Below, one piece after another: positions 31,131 to 38,985 of a stretch of DNA of 64,000 nucleotides. The position numbers were made by a program, and so were the translations under genes. The stretch comes from an uncultured Fibrobacteria bacterium (GTDB lineage Bacteria; Fibrobacterota; Fibrobacteria; UBA11236). Under the pieces are notes generated by a model, which had not been told where the DNA came from, did no database searches, and was given only the letters and a program-made list of their open reading frames with translations. Position 1 is the stretch's first letter; the number at the start of each line of letters is the position of its first letter. The stretch lies in NCBI GenBank assembly GCA_963716395.1, contig OY970309.1, forward strand, positions 1,876,402 to 1,940,401, read 5' to 3'.

Positions 31131-33083
31131 ATGTGCGGCATCTCCGGCTATTTCGCCTTTGCCGGTCCGGTGGAAGATCCATCGGCCTTGCAACGCATGA
31201 ACCGGGCCGTGGCCCATCGCGGGCCCGACGGCGAAGGTTTGTTTCTGTTACAACGCGCCACGGGCCAGGCGCGCGCGTTTTGCGGAACGCGCACGCCCAT
31301 GACACCGCCCGAACTCGGCCCCTGCGCATCGGATTTTCGCTTCGCACATGATGTGGCCCTGGGCCATCGCCGCTTCGCCATCCTGGATTTGAGTCCGGGC
31401 GGGCATCAACCGCTGGTCGGCGACGGCGGCGCGATGGCGCTGTGCTTCAATGGGGAGATTTACAACTATGTGGAACTACGCGCCGAATTGGAAAAGTCGG
31501 GCGCGATCTTCCGCACGCGCGGCGACGCTGAAGTGCTGCTGCAAGCCTACCGCCATTGGGGCGAAGCGTGCTTCGAGCGCCTTGCCGGTTTTTGGGCCCT
31601 GGCTTTGTGGGACCAAAAACACGGTCTTTTGCTGGCGCGCGACCGGCTGGGCAAGGCGCCGCTGTATCATACATGTTACGGGGGGCGCCGGTGGTGGAGT
31701 TCGGAAATCAAGGGGCTGTTGGCCGCCGCGGGCCGCCGCGCCTTCGCGGTCCGGCCGCAGGCCGCGGCGTGGTTCGCGCGCGCGGGGTTGCGCGACTTCG
31801 GGGGCGAAACTTTTTTCCAGGGCATCCGCACCTTTCCCGCGGCCAGCTTTGCCTGGGTGCGTGAAGACGGCGACTTCGCGCTGCGGCGCTTTTGGCGGCC
31901 GCCCGCCGCGCGGCTGCGCCCTTCCGAAATCTCGGCAGCCGAGGCGGCGGTTGAATTGCGCCAGCGCCTCTTCGCGGCCGTGTCGCTGCGGCTGCGCGCC
32001 GATGCGCCCGTGGGGTTGGAATTAAGCGGCGGTCTCGACAGCTCGACCCTGGCGGCTTTCGCGGCCCGCGCCGCCGAACCGTCGGCGCCGCCTTTTGCGG
32101 CCTTCACCGTCGGCTTTCCCGACACAGCCTGGAATGAAGCGCCCTTTGCCCGGCAAGTTCTCGCGTGTTGGCCTGGGCGTTTCACCCCGCGCGAACTTGT
32201 GCCCGACGCGCACGCCGTGCTGCGAGGCCTGGCCGCCTTTCACACGCACATGGATGAACCCATCCATTCCCCCAACATGGTGATCAACCAGGAAATTTGG
32301 CGGCGCATGGCCGCCGAGGGTATCCGCGTGAGTTTGAACGGAGCGGGCGGCGACGAAGTGTTCGCCGGCTACGGCAGCGAATATTTCGGGCCCTTTGTGC
32401 GCGGATTGATCGAACGGGGCCGCTTCGCCACCGCGGCGCGCGAGTTCGTCCGCTGCAGCGAACGCCCGCCGCATTCGGCGGCGGCGTGGCTGCGACTGGC
32501 CTGGATGTTGCTGCCAGAAGGTTTCCGCCGCGGCGTGCGTCCGCCTTTTCCCGCCCAAGAGATCGACCCCCTGCGGTGGCCGCGCGGCGCCTGGCCCGAA
32601 GCTTCTCCCGAGTTCGCGCAGCGGCTGCTGGATCATCTCGGCGATTACAAAATGAATTACTGGCTACGATCGGGAAACACTTCGTGCATGGGCGTGCCGC
32701 TCGAAGTGCGGCTGCCCCTGCTCGATCACCGCGTGGTGGAATGGGCCTGCCGGTTGCCGCCGGAATATTTAATCCGCGACGGCTGGCTCAAATGGATTTT
32801 GCGCCGGGCCGTCGAACCCTGGCTGCCGCCCGAGGTCACTTGGCGGCGGGTCAAAATGGGATTTCCCTTTCCTTTGGCCGCATGGCTGCGAACGGTCAAG
32901 CCGGCTTTGATGGCCTTGGGCCGGGGCGACGCGCCCGACTTTCTGGATCGCGGACGATTGTTCCGCCATTATGATTTCCTGGCCCATCGGTATCCGGCGT
33001 ATTTGTGGCGCTGCGTGTCGGTGCTGTTGTGGTGGAAGGTCGCGGTGAACGGCGAAACGCCGGTTCTCGACGCCGCGACGTGA
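31131..33083 (+). CDS. asnB: Asparagine synthase (glutamine-hydrolysing), AsnB family
   Basis: 650 aa; N-terminal MCGI glutaminase nucleophile; synthetase PP-loop region (LSGGLDSS). Confidence 0.9.
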   Translation: MCGISGYFAFAGPVEDPSALQRMNRAVAHRGPDGEGLFLLQRATGQARAFCGTRTPMTPPELGPCASDFRFAHDVALGHRRFAILDLSPGGHQPLVGDGGAMALCFNGEIYNYVELRAELEKSGAIFRTRGDAEVLLQAYRHWGEACFERLAGFWALALWDQKHGLLLARDRLGKAPLYHTCYGGRRWWSSEIKGLLAAAGRRAFAVRPQAAAWFARAGLRDFGGETFFQGIRTFPAASFAWVREDGDFALRRFWRPPAARLRPSEISAAEAAVELRQRLFAAVSLRLRADAPVGLELSGGLDSSTLAAFAARAAEPSAPPFAAFTVGFPDTAWNEAPFARQVLACWPGRFTPRELVPDAHAVLRGLAAFHTHMDEPIHSPNMVINQEIWRRMAAEGIRVSLNGAGGDEVFAGYGSEYFGPFVRGLIERGRFATAAREFVRCSERPPHSAAAWLRLAWMLLPEGFRRGVRPPFPAQEIDPLRWPRGAWPEASPEFAQRLLDHLGDYKMNYWLRSGNTSCMGVPLEVRLPLLDHRVVEWACRLPPEYLIRDGWLKWILRRAVEPWLPPEVTWRRVKMGFPFPLAAWLRTVKPALMALGRGDAPDFLDRGRLFRHYDFLAHRYPAYLWRCVSVLLWWKVAVNGETPVLDAAT

Positions 33084-33097
33084 TGAGGAGTTTCCGA

Positions 33098-34651
33098 TTA
33101 TTCCACCGCAAAAATCCGGTAATCAAAAACATTTTGTTGCCAGGGTAATGCGGAAGGTTTGTCCTTCCCCGTGTAAATCGCTTCAAAGAGGGGGGAAAGT
33201 TTTTGGGCGTCTGGATTTAATACCACAAAACGAACTCCACGACGCTTACAGGCGGAAATGAAATCCGCCATCGAATCCACGGGAAACTCCGGAAACTCCC
33301 GATTGTACAAATACGTTCCCCAACGCGGCGCGCCCCCATTGAAATACGGTATTTGATCGGGTAAAGTGCGGAAATACAAATCGAAGTCGCTGGTAAAAAC
33401 CTGAGTCGCTTTCCGCACTCCTAGGTCGCGCAGGTCGGCCTCAATGGCATGAAAGTCCCGTTGCAGGGTAGAGCGCTTCTCAAGCAAACGAAAATCCCGC
33501 AGGAGATTCACCCCAAGCATCAAGGCCACCAGAGTCCAGGCGCCCCAGGTCACCCACGCCGTCCTCCGATGGGAGAGAACATTCCCGTCGAATCGGTATT
33601 CCCATGCCGTCAGCATCACCATTCCCAAGGCCAGCATGGATAGTGGCAACGCCAGTAAAATTTGCCTTCCACTCGTGGTCGCGGAAAACATCAGAAAATA
33701 AATTGCCTCCCATGCCGCCACGATCCGCATCATCCATTTCCGCTGCGGGTGACGAACCCACAGAGCGGCGATGAGGGGCGGCCCATAGGCCTGTTTAAAA
33801 GACCATAGGGCCGTCAGATATTTTTTTAGGAATAACGCCGGATCCCCGGCGATGATGGCTCCAACCGAACCGGGCAATTTCAAATCCAAGGTGCGATGCC
33901 AGTTGATTCCATACATCAAGTCGTACACATTCATGGGACCGAATTGGGTTTCCAACAGGCCATGACCGCTGGCGAGGTTCACGGCCCATTGCAGGCTATA
34001 GACCGTGAACACACCCGCCGAAACCGTGGCCATCGTTTTCCAAAGTTGGGGACGTATCACCACAATCGCCAGCACCAACATGCCATCGGCCACCAAAACA
34101 TGGTAACGGAACAACGCCCCCAAACCCAGCAGGAATCCCGCCGCCAGGAAACCCCGGCTGGGTGCGGCCTGGGGCGAATCGAAGAGCCGAGAGAAAATCA
34201 GCGCGATCCCGGCGGTGAAAAAAAACAAGGCCGCCGGATCGCCGCCCCCCGCGTTCATGTAATGGAAGAACTGCACGAACAGCGAAAGTGACACCAAGGA
34301 CAGCAAGGCGAATCCCGGCGGCAGGATTTTACGGAACAGCCAACCCGAAACCGCGAGGGTCAGGGTTCCGAAGGCGACATTGACCAGAATGGCGGGACCC
34401 GCGGGATTTCCATCGCCCAGGATGAGTTTGAGCAGCAAGCCGCATCCCACCGGGTATTGCGGGTTAAACCACGATTGCCGATCCGCCCAATGCAAATGCC
34501 GGGCGTAAAACACCGTGTCCCAAAAATCATTGTGGTATTGCTGGAAATCCAAACCCCAATTCAATGCCAACGACCCAAGCGCGAAACACAGGGGAACGAT
34601 TAACCAGCCATAGCACAAAATGCCACGAGGTCTGCTGGCAGGACTATGCAA
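33098..34651 (-). CDS. Polytopic membrane glycosyltransferase (ArnT/PMT-like, GT39/GT83-type), putative
   Basis: ORF 33098..34846; about 10 TM segments followed by a soluble C-terminal domain; start tentatively placed at in-frame TTG overlapping the GT2 stop. Confidence 0.55.
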   Translation of the reverse strand: MHSPASRPRGILCYGWLIVPLCFALGSLALNWGLDFQQYHNDFWDTVFYARHLHWADRQSWFNPQYPVGCGLLLKLILGDGNPAGPAILVNVAFGTLTLAVSGWLFRKILPPGFALLSLVSLSLFVQFFHYMNAGGGDPAALFFFTAGIALIFSRLFDSPQAAPSRGFLAAGFLLGLGALFRYHVLVADGMLVLAIVVIRPQLWKTMATVSAGVFTVYSLQWAVNLASGHGLLETQFGPMNVYDLMYGINWHRTLDLKLPGSVGAIIAGDPALFLKKYLTALWSFKQAYGPPLIAALWVRHPQRKWMMRIVAAWEAIYFLMFSATTSGRQILLALPLSMLALGMVMLTAWEYRFDGNVLSHRRTAWVTWGAWTLVALMLGVNLLRDFRLLEKRSTLQRDFHAIEADLRDLGVRKATQVFTSDFDLYFRTLPDQIPYFNGGAPRWGTYLYNREFPEFPVDSMADFISACKRRGVRFVVLNPDAQKLSPLFEAIYTGKDKPSALPWQQNVFDYRIFAVE

Positions 34652-35405
34652 GGCGCGGGGGCCTTTCCCGGAATAAACGGGATCGCCGCCAACCCCGCCG
34701 GTGCAACAGGTAAACGATTGAGGTCGCCACCACGCCCAATCCGTAGTAAACGCTGGCGCCGAATTTAATGGTAGACGCTTCCGGAAAATACTTGGTGGGG
34801 CAGGTGATTTCGGCGATGGAAAAACCGCGCTGGAAAATCTGGACAATCATCTGGTTGTCGAACAGAAACCCATTGGAATTGGCATGGTAATTCACGGAGG
34901 CCAGTACTTCCTTGGAATAAGCCCGGTACCCGGTGTGGTACTCCGATAGTTTTTGCCCTAAGCAAAGGTTTTGCAGCAAAGTGAGGAACCGATTGGCCGC
35001 ATACTTGTAGCGCGGCATTCCGCCCCGCAAGGCCTGGCCGCCGAGAATACGCGAACCAAAGACCACGGGGTACACGCCGTTTGCAATTACGCTGGCCATG
35101 GCCGACACCAGTTTCGGGGTGTATTGGTAATCGGGGTGGATCATGATGACCATATCCGCGCCCAGTTCCAACGCCTTGTCATAGCACGTTTTTTGGTTGC
35201 CACCGTATCCGCGTCGATGATCATGCACGACGACATGTCGGATCCCCAACGTCACCGCAAGCGCGGAGGTTTCATCCACGCTCGCGTCGTCCACCAAGAC
35301 CACGTCGTCGACGATATCGAAGGGCAATTCTCGGTAAGTTTTTTCCAGGGTGGCCGCCGCGTTCAGCGCGGGCAAAACCACTACCAATTTTTTACCGAGG
35401 AGCAT
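34644..35405 (-). CDS. GT2 polyprenol-phosphate glycosyltransferase (ArnC/DPM1/GtrB-like)
   Basis: 253 aa; GT-A signature (VVLVDDASVDET...DADMVIMIHPDYQYTP). Confidence 0.9.
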   Translation of the reverse strand: MLLGKKLVVVLPALNAAATLEKTYRELPFDIVDDVVLVDDASVDETSALAVTLGIRHVVVHDHRRGYGGNQKTCYDKALELGADMVIMIHPDYQYTPKLVSAMASVIANGVYPVVFGSRILGGQALRGGMPRYKYAANRFLTLLQNLCLGQKLSEYHTGYRAYSKEVLASVNYHANSNGFLFDNQMIVQIFQRGFSIAEITCPTKYFPEASTIKFGASVYYGLGVVATSIVYLLHRRGWRRSRLFRERPPRLA

Positions 35406-35590
35406 GATGCGTTAATGTACCCAACTCGAACGGGTCCACAGCAGCTCGTCTTCGCAGGTGTTGCGCCGGTCCTGCCGGGAGGACTTGCGCAAGGTCTTCC
35501 CCCATCGCGGCGTGGCCCGGCCATGCTGCATGCGATCTACTCCCGATTTTGCGAACACTCCTACCTGGGTGTAGGCAAAATCGGGGAAGA

Positions 35591-36359
35591 TCATGGCTTG
35601 CGCGCCACGAAAATCCAGGCCTCGCCGTCGTCTTCATCCCCAGCGTCGAGGCGGCAGCGTTCGATCTCTTCGCGGCCCAGTTGCTCTGCATAGCGCACGG
35701 CTTCGACCCCGAAGCCCGCGGCACGCACCCGATCCGTGAAATCACTTCCGTAAAAACGCACGTGATCGAATTGTCCGAAACGCCGATGCCGCGCGGCGGG
35801 ATCGACGACAGAGGCGTCTTCGTCGGTGGGGCCTGTGCGCAGCGGCACCTGTATGACTGCCGCGCCGCCCGGACGCAAGACGCGCCGCAGCTGGCGCAGC
35901 GCCCCGCGGTCATCGGGTATGTGTTCCAGCACGTGGCTGCACAAAATCAGATCGAAGCGTTCCGATTGCATGCCCAGGTGCGCAATGTCGACGGCAACGC
36001 TCCCGCGACCGGGTTCGCGATCCGCGGCGACATAGCGCAGTGCTCGGCAAAGATTCCAACCGGTGCCGCAGGCCGGGTTCCGGGGCGAAGTGCAGAACCG
36101 ACACGGGCTTGGATCCCAACGCCATTTCGCGATCCAGGAACAACCACAAAAGACGGTGCCGTTCCAAAGACAGGCAACCCGGACACATGGCTTCGTCGCG
36201 GGGCGGATCGCCTTTGGGCAGAAAGCGGCGAAAGCGACCGCCGCAAACCGGGCAATGGCGATGATGCCCCCGCAGCCAAAGACCGCGCAAACGGTAATAG
36301 GCGGGTCGCAGACAGGCTTTCCAGGGGCGCACTTGGGGCGATGGGGCCGGGTTGAACAA
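35591..36359 (-). pseudogene. Class I SAM-dependent methyltransferase with N-terminal zinc ribbon; apparent frameshift
   Basis: N-terminal part (Cys pairs, VLHFAPEPGLRHRL) reads in ORF 35910..36359; C-terminal part (RYVAADRE...FDLILCSHVLEHIPDD...RVLRPGG) reads in the frame of ORF 35591..35971; span is 769 nt (3n+1); frames switch near 36030-36050. Confidence 0.6.
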
Positions 36360-36425
36360 GTCTGGGAAAGTTACAATCAGGGTGTTTGCGCGGGCGGGGA
36401 ACGGCCATGCGCGCGAGGTAGGGTT

Positions 36426-37562
36426 TTAACCCGCCCCGGTAAATTGTTCCAGGGGAACCGCCTCTACGCGGTTCGAAATCGCGTAACGCTTTTCACCCGG
36501 ATAAACGACCCATAATTCATCGAGCTTTAAATCGTGCCGCGCAATGCGCAGGGAGGGCGTCAAGGTCGGCGCATCCGCGCGTTTGCATTCCACGCCGATG
36601 CGTTTGCCCCGCCGGAACAAAAGCAAATCCAATTTCGCGCCGTTATGGGTGGCCCAAAAATAGGTCTCGTCCGGCGCGCGGGCCTTGAGGATTTCCTCAA
36701 CCGCGTATCCTTCCCAGGAGGCGCCCACCTTGGGGTGCATTTCCAAATCCCGCCGCGTGCCGATGCCGAGCAGCGCGTGCAGCAGCCCGCTGTCGCGGAC
36801 GTAAATTTTCGGCGCCTTGACCTGCCGCTTTCCGAGGTTTTCGAACCAAGGCGGAAGCTGGCGCACCATGAACACGTCGGTCAGGAGATCCAGATAGCGC
36901 CGGATGGTCGTTTCGCCCAACCCCATGGCGCGCGCCAATTCGGCGCCGTTCCAGATCCGGCCGTGGTAATGCGCCAACATGTTCCAGAAACGCCGCAACG
37001 TGGCGGCGGGAATGGTGACGCCGAGCTGGGGCATGTCCCGCTCCAGGAAGGTCTGGATGAATTGGTTTCTCCATGCCAACGAATCGGCCTCCGAACGCGC
37101 CGTATACGCCAGGGGGTAACCTCCCCGTAGCCAATGCCGGGGCTGGGCCTTGGCCCCCAAATCGCCCAGTCGAAAGCCCTCCAAGGTCAGGGTTTCCATA
37201 CGCCCGGCCAGGGATTCGGAGCTTTGTTTCAGCAATGCAGGCGTGGCGCTGCCGAGGATGAGAAAACGCGCGGGCAGGGGCCGGCGATCCGCCAGTACGC
37301 GCAGAAGGGGAAACAACTCGGGGCGGCGCTGGATTTCATCCAGCACCACGAGACCCTTGAGGGGGCGCAACGCGGTGTCGGGCTCCTGCAGGCGGGCGAG
37401 GCTGCGCGGATCTTCCAGGTCGAAGTAATTCAGCGATGTCGGCGGAACCAGGGAGCGGACCAAGGTGGTTTTACCGCTTTGCCGGGGGCCCAGCAAGGCC
37501 ACCACGCGGGCGCGTTTCAGGGCGGAGCGAAGGCGCGCCAGATCGGCGGGACGGGTGAGCAT
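36426..37562 (-). CDS. AAA+ ATPase (DUF4143/COG1373-type)
   Basis: ORF 36426..37937; start placed at Met 126 (MLTRPADLARLRSALKRARVVALLGPRQSGKTTL, Walker A); Walker B-like VVLDEIQ. Confidence 0.8.
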   Translation of the reverse strand: MLTRPADLARLRSALKRARVVALLGPRQSGKTTLVRSLVPPTSLNYFDLEDPRSLARLQEPDTALRPLKGLVVLDEIQRRPELFPLLRVLADRRPLPARFLILGSATPALLKQSSESLAGRMETLTLEGFRLGDLGAKAQPRHWLRGGYPLAYTARSEADSLAWRNQFIQTFLERDMPQLGVTIPAATLRRFWNMLAHYHGRIWNGAELARAMGLGETTIRRYLDLLTDVFMVRQLPPWFENLGKRQVKAPKIYVRDSGLLHALLGIGTRRDLEMHPKVGASWEGYAVEEILKARAPDETYFWATHNGAKLDLLLFRRGKRIGVECKRADAPTLTPSLRIARHDLKLDELWVVYPGEKRYAISNRVEAVPLEQFTGAG

Positions 37563-37569
37563 GATGACA

Positions 37570-37618
37570 AGATACCATATACCATGAAATTCCACCACTT
37601 GTAGGATGAATTTCATGG
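37570..37618. promoter_or_regulatory. Tandem ATACCAT repeat plus 11-bp perfect inverted repeat upstream of the AAA+ ATPase gene
   Basis: ATACCAT-ATACCAT followed by CCATGAAATTC-N15-GAATTTCATGG, 20-56 bp upstream of the ATPase start codon. Confidence 0.4.
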
Positions 37619-37712
37619 TGTCAAAAATACCCTTCCCGATCCCGAAGCGCTTTTCCCCCAAGGCGTAAATCCATCGCCTGCGGTGGGGGGAACTCCCCGG
37701 ATCGGGGCGGGG

Positions 37713-37766
37713 CCTTTTCCAAAAAGGATCGAGACCCTTTTTGCGGTGCCGGCGTTGCAAAAAGGG
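37713..37766. promoter_or_regulatory. Paired palindromes (CCTTTTCC-AAAAAGG and CCCTTTTTGC-N12-GCAAAAAGGG) upstream of the aminotransferase gene
   Basis: 10-bp perfect inverted repeat ending about 28 bp before the GTG start, preceded by a smaller palindrome with the same core; a similar CTTTTTCC-N11-GGAAAAA site lies at about 59241-59267. Confidence 0.4.
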
Positions 37767-37794
37767 TATTTTACGCCTTCGCAAAGGAAGCACC

Positions 37795-38985
37795 GTGAGC
37801 AAACCGGCCCTGGACGGCGGCAAACCCGTGCGGTCCCGCAAAAATTTTCTGGTGTTCGGCGCGCCGCAAATCGGGCCCGAAGAGATCGCGGGCGTGGTCG
37901 ATTCGCTGCGCCGCCGGTGGATCGGCACCGGCCCCAAGGTCGCCGCCTTCGAGCAGGCCTTCGCGGCCTACAAAGGCGCGATTGCCGTGGCCGTCAACTC
38001 TGGCACCGCGGCCCTGCATTTGTCGATTCTGTCTCTGGGCATCGGCCCCGGCGACGAAGTCATCACCACGCCCATGACTTTTTGCGCCACGGTCAACGCC
38101 ATTCTGCACGCCGGCGCACAACCGGTACTGGCCGACTGCGATCCGGTTTCGCTCAATCTCGATCCCGCGCACGTCGAGCGCAAAATCACCCGGCGCACCA
38201 AGGCCGTTTTGCCCGTGCATTTCGCCGGCCGCGCCTGCGACATGCGCGCCCTGATGCGCCTGGCCAAGGCGCATCGACTGCGCGTGGTCGAAGATTGCGC
38301 CCATGCCCTTGAAACCGAAACCATGGGCCGCAAGGCCGGCACCTTCGGCGATCTGGGCTGCTTCAGTTTCTACGTCACGAAAAACCTGACCACGGCCGAA
38401 GGCGGCATGGTGATCACCGCGCGGCAAAACCTGGCCGATCGCATCAAGCGCCTGGCCTTGCACGGCCTGTCTCAGGACGCCTGGAAGCGGTTCTCCGATG
38501 CGGGCTATGTGCATTACGACGTGGTCGAACCCGGATACAAATACAACATGACCGACTTGCAGGCCGCCATCGGCCTGCCGCAATTGCGTCGCCTCGAGTC
38601 GAATTGGAAGCGCCGCCGCGCGGTCTGGAACCGGTATCAGGAGGCTTTCGCCGATTTGCCGGTGGAGCTTCCGGCCGAAGCGCCGTCCGACGAACGGCAT
38701 GCCTACCATCTGTACACGCCCCGGGTAACGCGCGGGTTTCGCCGGAGCCGCGACTGGGTGTTGGCCGCCCTGACGGCCGAAGGTATCGGCGTGGGCGTAC
38801 ATTACCGCGCTTTATGCGACCACCCGTATTATCGGCGCGTCTTGGGCTGGAAGCGCCGCGACTTTCCGGTGGCGGCCGATATCGGGGAACGCACCGTGTC
38901 GCTGCCGCTGTCGGCGGCACTCACCGCACGCGACGTAGACGACGTCATCGCGGCTTTCCGCAAAGTGATGCGGGCCGGAGCCTGA
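37795..38985 (+). CDS. DegT/DnrJ/EryC1/StrS-family PLP-dependent sugar aminotransferase (ArnB/WecE-like)
   Basis: ORF 37741..38985; start placed at GTG behind AAGGAAG; conserved aminotransferase blocks incl. FSFYVTKNLTTAEGG (PLP-Lys region). Confidence 0.9.
   Translation: MSKPALDGGKPVRSRKNFLVFGAPQIGPEEIAGVVDSLRRRWIGTGPKVAAFEQAFAAYKGAIAVAVNSGTAALHLSILSLGIGPGDEVITTPMTFCATVNAILHAGAQPVLADCDPVSLNLDPAHVERKITRRTKAVLPVHFAGRACDMRALMRLAKAHRLRVVEDCAHALETETMGRKAGTFGDLGCFSFYVTKNLTTAEGGMVITARQNLADRIKRLALHGLSQDAWKRFSDAGYVHYDVVEPGYKYNMTDLQAAIGLPQLRRLESNWKRRRAVWNRYQEAFADLPVELPAEAPSDERHAYHLYTPRVTRGFRRSRDWVLAALTAEGIGVGVHYRALCDHPYYRRVLGWKRRDFPVAADIGERTVSLPLSAALTARDVDDVIAAFRKVMRAGA

What the first reader, a model, noticed from the sequence alone, without database searches (positions are those of the whole stretch)
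36426..37794. AAA+ ATPase (DUF4143-type) inside the glycan locus, with unusual repeats in its 5' region
A COG1373-type ATPase interrupts an otherwise biosynthetic locus. Its upstream region carries a tandem ATACCAT-ATACCAT and an 11-bp perfect inverted repeat (CCATGAAATTC-N15-GAATTTCATGG), and further upstream two AAAAAGG/CCTTTTT palindromes. The family is widespread but functionally undefined; the context and repeats suggest a regulated, possibly acquired, element.
Basis: partly seen in the sequence, partly recalled or inferred. Interest (0 to 1): 0.45.

Follow-up and report, generated by a model that had tools for sequence, protein, structure and literature searches.

The report
Palindrome-controlled ATPase–nuclease gene cassette
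The gene belongs to a very common but untested candidate anti-virus family (an ATPase fused to a DNA-cutting domain). The inverted repeat in front of it is a palindrome kept in front of relatives from about a dozen phyla; it carries the gene's own promoter and is probably its control site.

Summary

- **Gene.** The minus-strand gene (36426-37562, 378 aa) has AAA_14 + DUF4143 domains and matches PADLOC's untested defence candidate PDC-S01.
- **Start codon.** The true start is the downstream Met. The public 396-aa annotation wrongly starts at the ATG inside the repeat.
- **Palindrome.** The perfect 12-bp repeat (37581-37592 / 37608-37619) is the outer part of a ~37-41 bp palindrome. It is recognisable in nearly all of 77 close relatives (66-85% amino-acid identity) from about a dozen phyla, although synonymous sites are saturated.
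- **Promoter.** In relatives the palindrome often holds a TTGAC -35 in its loop. A TAnnnT -10 follows it, and the start codon lies 6-7 nt later, implying a leaderless mRNA.
- **Symmetry.** It is kept by compensatory changes.
- **Wider association.** The same palindrome precedes homologues of only 31-37% identity, and it also occurs alone.
- **Context.** Neighbours are heterogeneous and mostly housekeeping. In the nearest relatives of this genome asnB abuts degT, so the window carries an inserted block with the ATPase at its head.
- **Other repeats.** The 7-bp tandem repeat is peculiar to this copy. The AAAAAGG palindromes belong to the degT leader.

Best reading: a self-contained, horizontally spread single-gene cassette whose palindrome is its promoter and probably its operator. 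Binding, regulation and defence activity are inferred, not shown.

The parts
36426..37562 (-). Coding sequence of the ATPase-nuclease (378 aa plus stop). Walker A is GPRQSGKTT (res 25-33) and Walker B is VVLDE (res 72-76). A winged helix spans about res 186-255. The C-terminal PD-(D/E)xK motif is E284...D312...E325-x-K327.
   Evidence: Pfam AAA_14 + DUF4143. PADLOC PDC-S01 HMMs at E 1.7e-88 and 3.8e-43. Motif residues are invariant or nearly invariant in alignments at 36-84% identity. AF2 model pLDDT 95.6. dN/dS 0.08 against the nearest relative.
37560..37562 (-). True start codon (ATG; Met19 of the 396-aa public annotation).
   Evidence: Homologue lengths and N-terminal alignment. All homologous loci start ATG/GTG-ATT at this position. 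The upstream ATG is out of frame or followed by a stop in 63 of 68 loci.
37569..37577 (-). Candidate extended -10 element TGG-TATCTT, with 6 nt to the ATG. This predicts a leaderless or nearly leaderless mRNA.
   Evidence: Geometry identical to the family pattern. A [T/C]AnnnT hexamer lies 5-8 nt before the start in 67 of 73 loci (6 nt in 37, 7 nt in 22), and TG sits at -15/-14 in 21. Not detected by the strict two-hexamer scan, because the -35 is missing here.
37572..37585 (-). 7-bp tandem duplication (ATGGTAT x2 on the coding strand). It is specific to this copy and pushes the palindrome 7 bp away from the proximal -10.
   Evidence: Read. Absent from all 76 other aligned loci and from the nearest relatives L091 and L093.
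37581..37619 (.). Family palindrome. The outer arms 37581-37592 and 37608-37619 are perfect. The inner 15 nt (37593-37607) are degenerate here: in relatives they form a 6-bp stem with a 5-nt loop that often reads TTGAC (-35).
   Evidence: Pair counts: 85% paired against 36-44% in slid controls, and 103 double-change cells against 38 in shuffles. The window's -35 matches 1 of 6 positions.
33084..37720 (-). Context: a block of four co-directional minus-strand genes. In order they are the ATPase, a frameshifted SAM-methyltransferase, a GT2 glycosyltransferase and a 582-aa ORF with no Pfam match. The block lies between asnB and the degT leader. The right-hand edge is approximate.
   Evidence: asnB and degT are adjacent in L097 and L101. 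Robust homology of the degT leader resumes near 37723; a weaker gapped alignment starts at 37678. Gene content. GC is 0.55 for 33098-35400 against 0.62 for the window.

Best explanation
The locus is one copy of a compact, self-contained single-gene cassette of the AAA_14/DUF4143 family (PADLOC candidate PDC-S01).

The protein. It is a STAND/Orc-like NTPase (nucleotide-binding domain, helical lid, winged helix) fused to a C-terminal PD-(D/E)xK nuclease.

The DNA element. The cassette begins exactly at a ~37-41 bp palindrome that carries the gene's own sigma-70-type promoter. In many relatives a TTGAC -35 sits in the loop and the right arm fills the spacer. A TAnnnT -10 follows, often with the arm's TG as an extended -10. 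The start codon comes 6-7 nt later, so the mRNA is leaderless and needs no host-specific ribosome-binding site.

Proposed mechanism. The sequence-conserved outer arms (CCATGAAAWT / AWTTTCATGG) are most likely the site where the cassette's own product binds and represses its promoter, holding a potentially toxic ATP-dependent nuclease at a low level. The hairpin-forming inner stem may add insulation or structure-specific recognition.

The window copy. The ORF is intact and under purifying selection. The outer arms are perfect, but the inner stem and -35 have decayed. A 7-bp duplication re-creates TGG-TAT so that TGn-TATCTT sits 6 nt before the ATG. This may loosen control and also drive the three downstream glycan genes.

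Shown: family membership, the start codon, conservation and symmetry of the palindrome, promoter geometry, heterogeneous contexts, and insertion relative to close genomes.

Inferred: transcription start, binding by the product, autorepression, nuclease activity, and any defence role.
For: Family and fold
- Pfam and PADLOC hits.
- AF2 model with pLDDT 95.6.
- Foldseek also finds the Can2/Card1 nucleases.
- E284, D312, E325 and K327 are nearly invariant at 36-84% identity.

Palindrome
- Recognisable in nearly all of 77 loci from Verrucomicrobiota, Acidobacteriota, Planctomycetota, Nitrospira, Chloroflexi, Proteobacteria and others.
- No conservation upstream of the left arm or downstream of the stop codon.
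- Synonymous sites between the genes are saturated (dS 1.25-1.87, dN/dS 0.08), so the non-coding conservation implies selection.
- Symmetry is kept by compensatory changes.

Promoter geometry
- The -35 matches at least 4 of 6 positions in 49 of 77 loci, and the spacer is 17 nt in 53 of 77.
- A -10 with A2 and T6 lies 5-8 nt before the start codon in 67 of 73 loci.

Association with the family
- In the metagenome sample of 122 exact palindromes, 64 lie within 45 nt upstream of a close homologue. 14 more lie near distant or partial homologues.
- Homologues of 31-37% identity carry the same outer arms 60-75 nt upstream.
- 46%-identical plasmid homologues carry a related palindrome, CCTTGCAAWT...AWTTGCAAGG, abutting the ATG.
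- The window copy keeps 12 of 12 bases in both outer arms although its inner part has decayed.

Context
- No conserved partner gene.
- asnB and degT are adjacent in relatives.

Literature
- A Thermus DUF4143 gene rose 6.6-fold when plasmid DNA was present (PMC4406477).
Against: - No experiment shows binding, a transcription start or repression.
- The arm centres lie 27 bp apart (about 2.6 helical turns). This is awkward for a simple dimeric winged helix on B-form DNA.
- In STAND proteins the winged helix is a conformational switch rather than a DNA reader. Recognition-helix residues do not track half-site variants cleanly.
- Covariation of the inner stem points to base pairing, not base-specific protein contact.
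- 22-35% of exact palindromes in the sample have no family gene on the contig. An operator model does not predict this.
- Many metagenomic copies lack a recognisable -35.
- In this window the strict promoter scan finds nothing.
- The defence role rests only on guilt-by-embedding (bioRxiv 10.1101/2024.01.29.577857). Most neighbours here are housekeeping genes.
Confidence: 0.55

Rival explanations
1. The palindrome is mainly a recombination or mobility site that marks the cassette's end. The ATPase-nuclease cuts the extruded hairpin or cruciform to insert or excise the cassette. Solo palindromes are scars or landing pads. The promoter is a passenger in the site.
For: - Sequence similarity between loci starts exactly at the left arm and ends at the stop codon.
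- Extra palindromes lacking a -35, but sharing the locus-specific inner stem, flank the gene in L024, L028 and L036 (upstream) and in L046, L050, L053, L054 and L166 (just after the stop).
- 27-43 of 122 palindromes are solo.
- In the Acidobacteriaceae hotspot between threonyl-tRNA synthetase and EF-G, the cassette alternates with Fic, ankyrin or phosphoesterase genes beside solo palindromes. In L177 two sit in tandem.
- The gene is spread across phyla with unrelated neighbours.
- Covariation favours a hairpin.
- The nearest AAA+ fold relatives include the transposition regulators MuB and TnsC, at lower scores.
Against: - No target-site duplications and no exact empty/occupied site pair were found.
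- Most loci have a single palindrome.
- Only one copy lies in this 64-kb window, and only eight extra copies lie in about 1 Mb of flanks. All eight are within about 200 nt of the gene.
- dS is saturated and gene GC tracks host GC (r 0.64), so copies are old residents rather than recent jumpers.
- Synteny is stable within Acidobacteriaceae.
- No known transposase chemistry has this architecture.
Confidence: 0.17
2. The palindrome is a bidirectional intrinsic terminator or insulator hairpin: a GC-rich inner stem flanked by an A-tract and a T-tract. It shields the cassette from read-through, and no dedicated protein binds it.
For: - Consensus GAAAAT-CCCGCA-loop-TGCGGG-ATTTTC resembles a bidirectional terminator.
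- The inner stem covaries.
- G-T mismatches outnumber A-C mismatches 48 to 25 on the sense strand, as expected for an RNA hairpin.
- In Acidobacteriaceae it lies 15-60 nt after the upstream gene's stop.
- Copies just after the cassette's own stop lack promoter motifs.
Against: - The outermost bases (ACCATG / CATGGT) are about 90% conserved across phyla, far more than pairing requires.
- The window copy keeps the outer arms perfectly while losing the GC stem. No terminator-like site is scored there.
- The window's upstream neighbour is divergent, so there is nothing to terminate.
- Solo copies lie between divergent genes in 6 of 21 classifiable cases, as chance predicts.
- The T-run is only four bases.
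Confidence: 0.12
3. The repeat is meaningless. It lies inside the coding sequence of a housekeeping ATPase whose true start is the upstream Met (MKFILQ...), as in the public 396-aa annotation.
For: - The ORF is open back to 37616. The public record P0001 aa.
- A few homologues have similar open extensions, for example P0040, P0072 and P0093.
Against: - Most homologues are 378 or 384 aa.
- The left-arm ATG is out of frame in 55 loci and followed by a stop in 8, out of 68.
- The similarity of the extensions ('FHG', 'MVY') is a DNA-level palindrome read in different frames.
- The same palindrome occurs without any gene.
Confidence: 0.02

Closest known systems
PADLOC phage defence candidate PDC-S01 (AAA_14 + DUF4143, COG1373)
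   Same: Direct HMM matches, the same two Pfam domains, and ATPase plus PD-(D/E)xK architecture as described in PMC12988326 and PMC3424549. Single-gene, very abundant, and moved between domains of life.
   Different: PDC-S01 is defined by sequence and by embedding in BREX, DISARM or type I R-M loci, and is untested. Nothing found in the searchable literature (three papers hold 'DUF4143', seven 'PDC-S01') describes a conserved upstream palindrome, a leaderless arrangement or solo palindromes. The window copy is not embedded in a defence system.
Archaeal Walker-type ATPases PABY2304 (PDB 2qen) and SSO1545 (2fna); STAND NTPases (NB-ARC/CED-4/Avs)
   Different: Sequence identity is only 10-21%. 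This protein has a C-terminal PD-(D/E)xK domain and no sensor repeats. No function is known for 2qen or 2fna.
Controller (C) proteins of restriction-modification systems and their C-box operators
   Same: Works alike on paper: a mobile nuclease-encoding module whose small palindromic operator overlaps its own promoter and whose transcript is leaderless. This gives host-independent, self-limiting expression. The comparison rests on my own knowledge of C.PvuII and C.AhdI and was not checked here.
   Different: There the regulator is a separate small HTH protein. The operator has two adjacent palindromes, not one hairpin-capable 37-bp palindrome. There is no sequence or fold relationship.
Archaeal Orc1/Cdc6 and origin recognition boxes
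   Same: An AAA+ plus winged-helix protein whose gene lies next to the inverted repeats it binds. Cdc6/Orc1 bound to origin DNA is among the fold matches (2qby).
   Different: Lower structural score. There is no AT-rich unwinding element between the arms, the element is 37 bp, and the protein carries a nuclease.
REP elements and their RAYT transposases
   Same: A gene flanked by hairpin-forming palindromes with conserved bases and free stems, plus solo copies elsewhere.
   Different: There is no HUH/Y1 transposase. The copy number per genome appears low: one in this 64-kb window, and none more than 200 nt from the gene in about 1 Mb of flanks.

Membership tests
AAA_14/DUF4143 (COG1373) = PADLOC PDC-S01 | AAA_14 P-loop domain followed by DUF4143, each above Pfam's gathering score | tested here: met
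   AAA_14 scores 79.2 bits (cut-off 27) and DUF4143 scores 151.5 bits (cut-off 28.1).
AAA_14/DUF4143 (COG1373) = PADLOC PDC-S01 | Match to PADLOC PDC-S01 profile HMMs | tested here: met
   PDLC04790 at E 1.7e-88 and PDLC04789 at E 3.8e-43, plus five weaker PDC-S01 models.
AAA_14/DUF4143 (COG1373) = PADLOC PDC-S01 | Intact Walker A and B motifs and the PD-(D/E)xK catalytic residues | tested here: met
   GPRQSGKTT, VVLDE, and E284/D312/E325-x-K327 on an alpha-beta-beta-beta core.
AAA_14/DUF4143 (COG1373) = PADLOC PDC-S01 | Embedded in or next to known defence systems (the basis of the PDC call) | tested here: not met
   Window neighbours are a methyltransferase, a glycosyltransferase and degT. 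Most of 139 neighbours of relatives are housekeeping genes. One relative lies beside an Eco57I-type methylase, a PLD/SNF2 helicase and an integrase.
AAA_14/DUF4143 (COG1373) = PADLOC PDC-S01 | Protection against phage | not testable with these tools
   Reported as untested in the source papers.
STAND NTPases | NBD, helical domain and winged-helix module | tested here: met
STAND NTPases | C-terminal sensor repeat domain (TPR, LRR or WD40) | tested here: not met
   The protein ends at residue 378 with the nuclease domain. No repeat families are found by Pfam.
Autoregulated promoter-operator (C-protein-like logic) | Palindrome overlapping the -35, spacer and -10 of the gene's own promoter, conserved with the gene | tested here: met
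   In the window copy the -35 is lost and the -10 is displaced by 7 bp.
Autoregulated promoter-operator (C-protein-like logic) | Binding of the gene product to the palindrome, and repression | not testable with these tools
   Comparison of half-site variants with recognition-helix residues was inconclusive.
Leaderless mRNA | Transcription start at or within about 2 nt of the start codon | tested here: inconclusive
   The -10 hexamer ends 6 nt (37 loci) or 7 nt (22 loci) before ATG/GTG, out of 73. No transcript data are available.
Intrinsic terminator | GC-rich stem followed by a T-run | tested here: not met
   No terminator-like site in window 37300-38000. The window copy lacks the GC stem. 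The family consensus has a 6-bp GC stem plus ATTTTC, which is borderline.
REP/RAYT-type dispersed palindromes | Many dispersed copies per genome and an HUH transposase | tested here: not met
   One copy in the 64-kb window. Extra copies occur only within about 200 nt of the gene in about 1 Mb of flanks. The protein is an AAA+/nuclease.
Rfam RNA families | Covariance-model match in the intergenic region | tested here: not met
   Only one chance-level CRISPR-DR hit, inside degT (E 2.3).

The most novel reading that the evidence does not exclude
The palindrome is the cognate DNA ligand of the whole DUF4143/PDC-S01 family. These STAND/Orc-like ATPase-nucleases would recognise a hairpin or cruciform with fixed outer bases (CCATGAAAWT) and a free inner stem. 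The gene plus palindrome would then form a new kind of palindrome-bounded mobile cassette. Solo copies would be its landing pads or scars, and the same structure-specific recognition would be used against invading DNA.
Probability: 0.15. Interest if true: 0.8.

Novelty: new variant of a known kind. Interest (0 to 1): 0.55.

Why it matters
PDC-S01/DUF4143 proteins are reported as the fourth most common 'defence' item in prokaryotic genomes (PMC12988326). Yet nothing is known about what they bind or how they are controlled.

A short DNA element accompanies close homologues in about a dozen phyla and also precedes some homologues of only 31-37% identity. It gives the family its first concrete, testable handle:
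- a candidate ligand for binding and cleavage assays;
- a predicted promoter and leaderless start for expression studies;
- a marker for finding cassettes and their remnants.

It also corrects a recurrent annotation error: start codons called inside the palindrome. For this window, it shows that the glycan locus carries an inserted block headed by such a cassette.

Tried and rejected
- **Rfam** scan of 36000-38500 found nothing relevant.
- **Strict sigma-70 and terminator scan** of the window intergenic region found no sites. The promoter case rests on comparative data instead.
- **Exact-protein look-ups** of the window's own product (P0001). The look-up of encoding contigs had no gene with exactly this product on record. 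The listing of cluster members found it, but as an unnamed single-member cluster with no accession. The source organism therefore stays unknown.
- **First AlphaFold run**, on a shallow alignment (74-85% identity), gave pLDDT 50 and was discarded. A third protein search with a diverse profile returned the same subfamily again. An 81-sequence alignment using 50%-cluster representatives then gave pLDDT 95.6.
- **PDB sequence searches** found only P-loop matches.
- **Palindrome as a phage sequence or target:** one chance hit in 2.9 million viral contigs, inside an AT-rich ORF with no inner stem. tblastn found only five weak phage-record hits.
- **Conserved partner gene or operon:** rejected. 87 and 83 different Pfam families occur among 69 and 70 immediate neighbours.
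- **Solo palindromes as promoters of another recurrent gene family:** rejected. 40 unrelated families occur among 56 flanking ORFs.
- **Solo palindromes as plain terminators:** not supported by gene orientation.
- **Half-site versus recognition-helix covariation:** inconclusive.
- **Recent horizontal transfer as the reason for 75-80% identity across phyla:** not supported. dS is saturated and gene GC tracks host GC. Strong purifying selection with old transfers fits better.
- **A MITE bounded by the 11-bp repeats at 37624-37634 and 37762-37772:** no other copies exist in the window. One arm belongs to the conserved degT leader.
Full report
**1. What is in the sequence**

The finding covers a minus-strand ORF (36426-37616) and the 230-bp region between it and the divergent degT aminotransferase gene, which starts at GTG 37795.
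- The ORF has Pfam AAA_14 (E 3.6e-22) and DUF4143 (E 2.2e-44) domains.
- The inverted repeat is 12 bp and perfect: ACCATGAAATTC-N15-GAATTTCATGGT at 37581-37592 / 37608-37619. The exact 11-mer occurs nowhere else in the window.
- The tandem ATACCAT-ATACCAT lies at 37572-37585.
- The AAAAAGG/CCTTTTT palindromes lie at 37720-37767.
- The intergenic region folds much better than shuffles on both strands (z about -4.3).
- No Rfam family matches it.

**2. The start codon**

The public annotation (P0001, 396 aa) starts at the ATG inside the repeat's left arm.
- Homologues are mostly 378 or 384 aa and cover 95-96% of that ORF.
- Their N-termini align from MLTRPADL onward. The occasional longer N-termini ('MKI..FHG', 'MVY') are the same DNA palindrome read in different frames.
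- Among 68 homologous loci with a recognisable left arm, its ATG is out of frame in 55, followed by a stop in 8, not a start codon in 2, and open in only 3.
- The true start is therefore ATG 37562-37560 (378 aa), and the repeat is non-coding.

**3. The repeat is a conserved family element**

More than 563 close relatives (66-79% identity) were found in species-representative genomes. They come from Verrucomicrobiota, Acidobacteriota, Planctomycetota, Nitrospira, Chloroflexi, Gamma- and Deltaproteobacteria, Bacteroidales, WOR-3, Armatimonadota and Binatia, and one Bathyarchaeia bin.

The sequence just upstream of the start is conserved in nearly all 77 aligned loci. The consensus is tACCATGAAAaTCCCGCA-TTGAC-TGCGGGAtTTTCATGGTaTAnAAT-N6-7-ATG/GTG-ATT.
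- 65 loci keep both 8-nt arm cores with at most one mismatch each. L006 has no palindrome at all.
- There is no similarity upstream of the left arm. Downstream of the stop there is generally none either.
- Synonymous sites between the genes are saturated: dS is 1.25 even against the 85%-identical nearest relative, and dN/dS is 0.08. Non-coding identity of about 90% in the outer arms therefore implies selection.

For an 18-pair hairpin written on the alignment:
- 85.2% of cells pair, against 36-44% when the partners are slid by 1-3 columns.
- 103 cells carry changes on both sides, against 38 ± 5 in shuffles.
- The double changes are concentrated in the inner stem (CG, AU, GC and UA all occur). 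They also occur in the outer arms, for example CCATG/CATGG changing to CCTTG/CAAGG.

**4. Promoter anatomy**

- In the GTDB set the loop reads TTGACn with at least 4 of 6 matches in 49 of 77 loci. The spacer to the best -10 is 17 nt in 53 of 77.
- A [T/C]AnnnT hexamer lies 5-8 nt before the start codon in 67 of 73 loci: 6 nt in 37 and 7 nt in 22.
- In 21 loci the hexamer begins at the T of CATGGT. The arm's TG then sits at -15/-14, as in extended -10 promoters.
- Start codons are ATG in 53 loci and GTG in 22.
- This geometry leaves no room for a leader or a Shine-Dalgarno sequence, so I infer a leaderless mRNA. No transcript data were available.
- Many metagenomic copies lack a recognisable -35 but keep the -10 and the spacing to the start.

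**5. The window copy is atypical**

- Both outer arms are perfect.
- The inner 15 nt (ATCCTACAAGTGGTG on the coding strand) have lost the stem and the -35, which matches 1 of 6 positions.
- The 7-bp duplication is absent from all other loci, including the nearest relatives. Those have a canonical TTGACA loop.
- The duplicated unit contains TGGTAT. The promoter-proximal copy gives TGG-TATCTT-GTCATC-ATG, the family's extended -10 and leaderless geometry. The palindrome is now 7 bp further away.
- The ORF is intact with all motif residues.
- A frameshifted methyltransferase, a GT2 and a 582-aa ORF follow on the same strand, the first only 17 nt after the ATPase stop. The cassette's promoter may therefore also drive them. 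This last point is inference.

**6. Context: an insertion**

- In the closest genomes found through degT (79-83% identity), asnB is directly followed by degT. The gaps are 87 nt in L097 and 12 nt in L101. The same downstream adenylosuccinate-lyase gene follows.
- In the window, asnB ends at 33083. A block of minus-strand genes of about 4.6 kb, headed by the ATPase, then precedes degT.
- The 37734-37767 palindrome with its TATTTTA tail is present in L097 just after the asnB stop. It is a native terminator- or leader-like hairpin, not part of the cassette.
- GC content is 0.55 for 33098-35400, 0.63 for the ATPase and 0.62 for the window.

**7. Neighbourhoods of relatives**

- Immediate neighbours in 70 species are heterogeneous: 87 and 83 Pfam families among 69 and 70 ORFs.
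- They are mostly housekeeping genes. Threonyl-tRNA synthetase, NAD-dependent ligase and EF-G recur in Acidobacteriaceae, where synteny is stable.
- A few are TIR, DarT, ResIII or integrase genes.
- One abundant relative lies beside an Eco57I-type methylase, a PLD/SNF2 helicase and an integrase.
- Gene GC tracks host GC (r 0.64).
- The picture is an old, strongly constrained, horizontally spread single gene with no partner.

**8. The palindrome beyond this subfamily, and alone**

- Plasmid homologues of 46% identity (Octadecabacter, Thermus, Rhizobium) have a related palindrome, CCTTGCAAWT...AWTTGCAAGG, abutting their ATG.
  - 64 lie within 45 nt upstream of a close homologue.
  - 14 lie near distant or partial homologues. 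Four full-length ones of 31-37% identity have the palindrome 60-75 nt upstream.
  - 43 have no family ORF on the contig by profile search, and 27 of these have more than 400 nt on both sides.
- Solo copies keep the 17-nt inner length, and about half keep an inner stem of at least 4 bp.
- Their neighbours are unrelated.
- They lie between divergent genes as often as chance predicts, in 6 of 21 classifiable cases.
- In the Acidobacteriaceae hotspot between threonyl-tRNA synthetase and EF-G, the cassette alternates with Fic, ankyrin or phosphoesterase genes next to solo palindromes. In L177 two sit in tandem.
- Some cassettes have a second palindrome, without a -35 but with the same inner stem, just upstream or just after the stop.
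- Viral contigs lack the element, apart from one chance hit.

**9. The protein**

- PADLOC assigns it to PDC-S01. This is one of 145 untested candidates derived from genes embedded in BREX, DISARM or type I R-M loci (bioRxiv 10.1101/2024.01.29.577857).
- PDC-S01 is described as an ATPase fused to a PD-(D/E)xK domain and as the fourth most common 'defence' in prokaryotes (PMC12988326). DUF4143 is listed among PD-(D/E)xK families in PMC3424549.
- The family has 18,723 clusters at 50% identity with E ≤ 1e-3.
- With a diverse alignment AlphaFold gives pLDDT 95.6.
- Foldseek also finds the Can2/Card1 nucleases.
- The C-terminal domain has an alpha-beta-beta-beta core carrying nearly invariant E284, D312 and E325-x-K327.
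- No solved structure is related by sequence beyond the P-loop.
- A Thermus DUF4143 gene rose 6.6-fold when plasmid DNA was present (PMC4406477).

**10. Interpretation**

Best supported (0.55): a self-contained cassette whose palindrome carries its promoter and, most likely, its operator. The leaderless start makes expression independent of host ribosome-binding signals.
- For protein recognition of the outer arms: they are conserved in sequence across phyla, across distant homologues and in the decayed window copy. The only protein that always travels with them is the cassette's own.
- Against a simple operator:
  - the inner-stem covariation;
  - the 27-bp arm spacing;
  - the STAND-like character of the winged helix;
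  - the solo copies.

Rivals:
- A recombination or mobility site, with solo copies as scars or landing pads (0.17).
- A bidirectional terminator or insulator (0.12).
- A meaningless in-frame repeat (0.02).

The functions are not mutually exclusive.

**11. Novelty**

The gene is a new member of a known, uncharacterised family. The conserved palindromic promoter, the inferred leaderless arrangement and the solo palindromes were not found described in the searchable literature. I therefore rate it a new variant of a known kind, of moderate interest. It turns an abundant orphan family into something directly testable.

Noticed in passing
window 35392-36408 (-): A SAM-dependent methyltransferase is split over two frames. 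The N-terminal part (35947-36408) has CxxC...CxxC motifs and no Pfam hit. The C-terminal part (35591-35971) hits Methyltransf_23/11. This indicates a frameshift around 35950-36090, so either a pseudogene or a sequencing error.
   Followed up: partly
window 37734-37767 (+): The palindrome ACCCTTTTTGC-N12-GCAAAAAGGGT followed by TATTTTA is conserved just after the asnB stop and upstream of degT in L097 (7944-7980). It is a native terminator- or leader-like hairpin that the insertion has orphaned from asnB. A third AAAAAGG segment (37720-37727) could pair alternatively with the middle arm.
   Followed up: partly
window 37624-37634 and 37660-37669 versus 37762-37779: Two short pieces of the degT leader (AAGGGTATTTT and TTTACGCCTT) recur as perfect inverted copies next to the ATPase palindrome, in rearranged order. 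This may be a junction rearrangement from the insertion. No other copies exist in the window.
   Followed up: partly
window 33098-35405: A low-GC stretch (0.55 against 0.62 for the window) holds a 582-aa ORF with no Pfam match and a GT2 glycosyltransferase, convergent with asnB. It is probably of foreign origin, separate from the ATPase and methyltransferase (GC 0.63).
   Followed up: no
window 37563-37616 (public protein P0001): The public annotation extends the protein by 18 codons into the palindrome. Several database homologues (P0040, P0072, P0093, P0061) show the same over-extension.
   Followed up: yes
L177 1659-1761; L144 1653-1689; L109 1045-1081: In uncultured Acidobacteriaceae the interval between threonyl-tRNA synthetase and EF-G is a variable hotspot. 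It holds either the ATPase cassette or a Fic, DUF6438-ankyrin or metallophosphoesterase gene. Solo palindromes sit about 160 nt upstream of EF-G. In L177 two sit in tandem with different inner stems.
   Followed up: partly
L081-L090 1-8895: One abundant relative (P0054, seen on 75 contigs) lies between an Eco57I-type N6-methylase with a PLD/SNF2 helicase (DISARM- or BREX-like) and a tyrosine integrase. This is a defence-island or mobile-element setting.
   Followed up: no
L064 6629-6700; L036 658-694: L064 has a tandem second palindrome with a promoter and the start of a second, apparently disrupted, gene copy. L036 has an extra palindrome 83 nt upstream of the gene.
   Followed up: no
L212 663-699: An exact palindrome lies inside the coding region of a 62%-identical homologue, around residue 110. 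This suggests a rearranged or recombinant copy.
   Followed up: no
L094 1931-2812; L096 1733-2884: In two plasmid homologues of 46% identity, a recombinase or site-specific integrase gene ends 50-120 nt upstream of the ATPase on the same strand.
   Followed up: no
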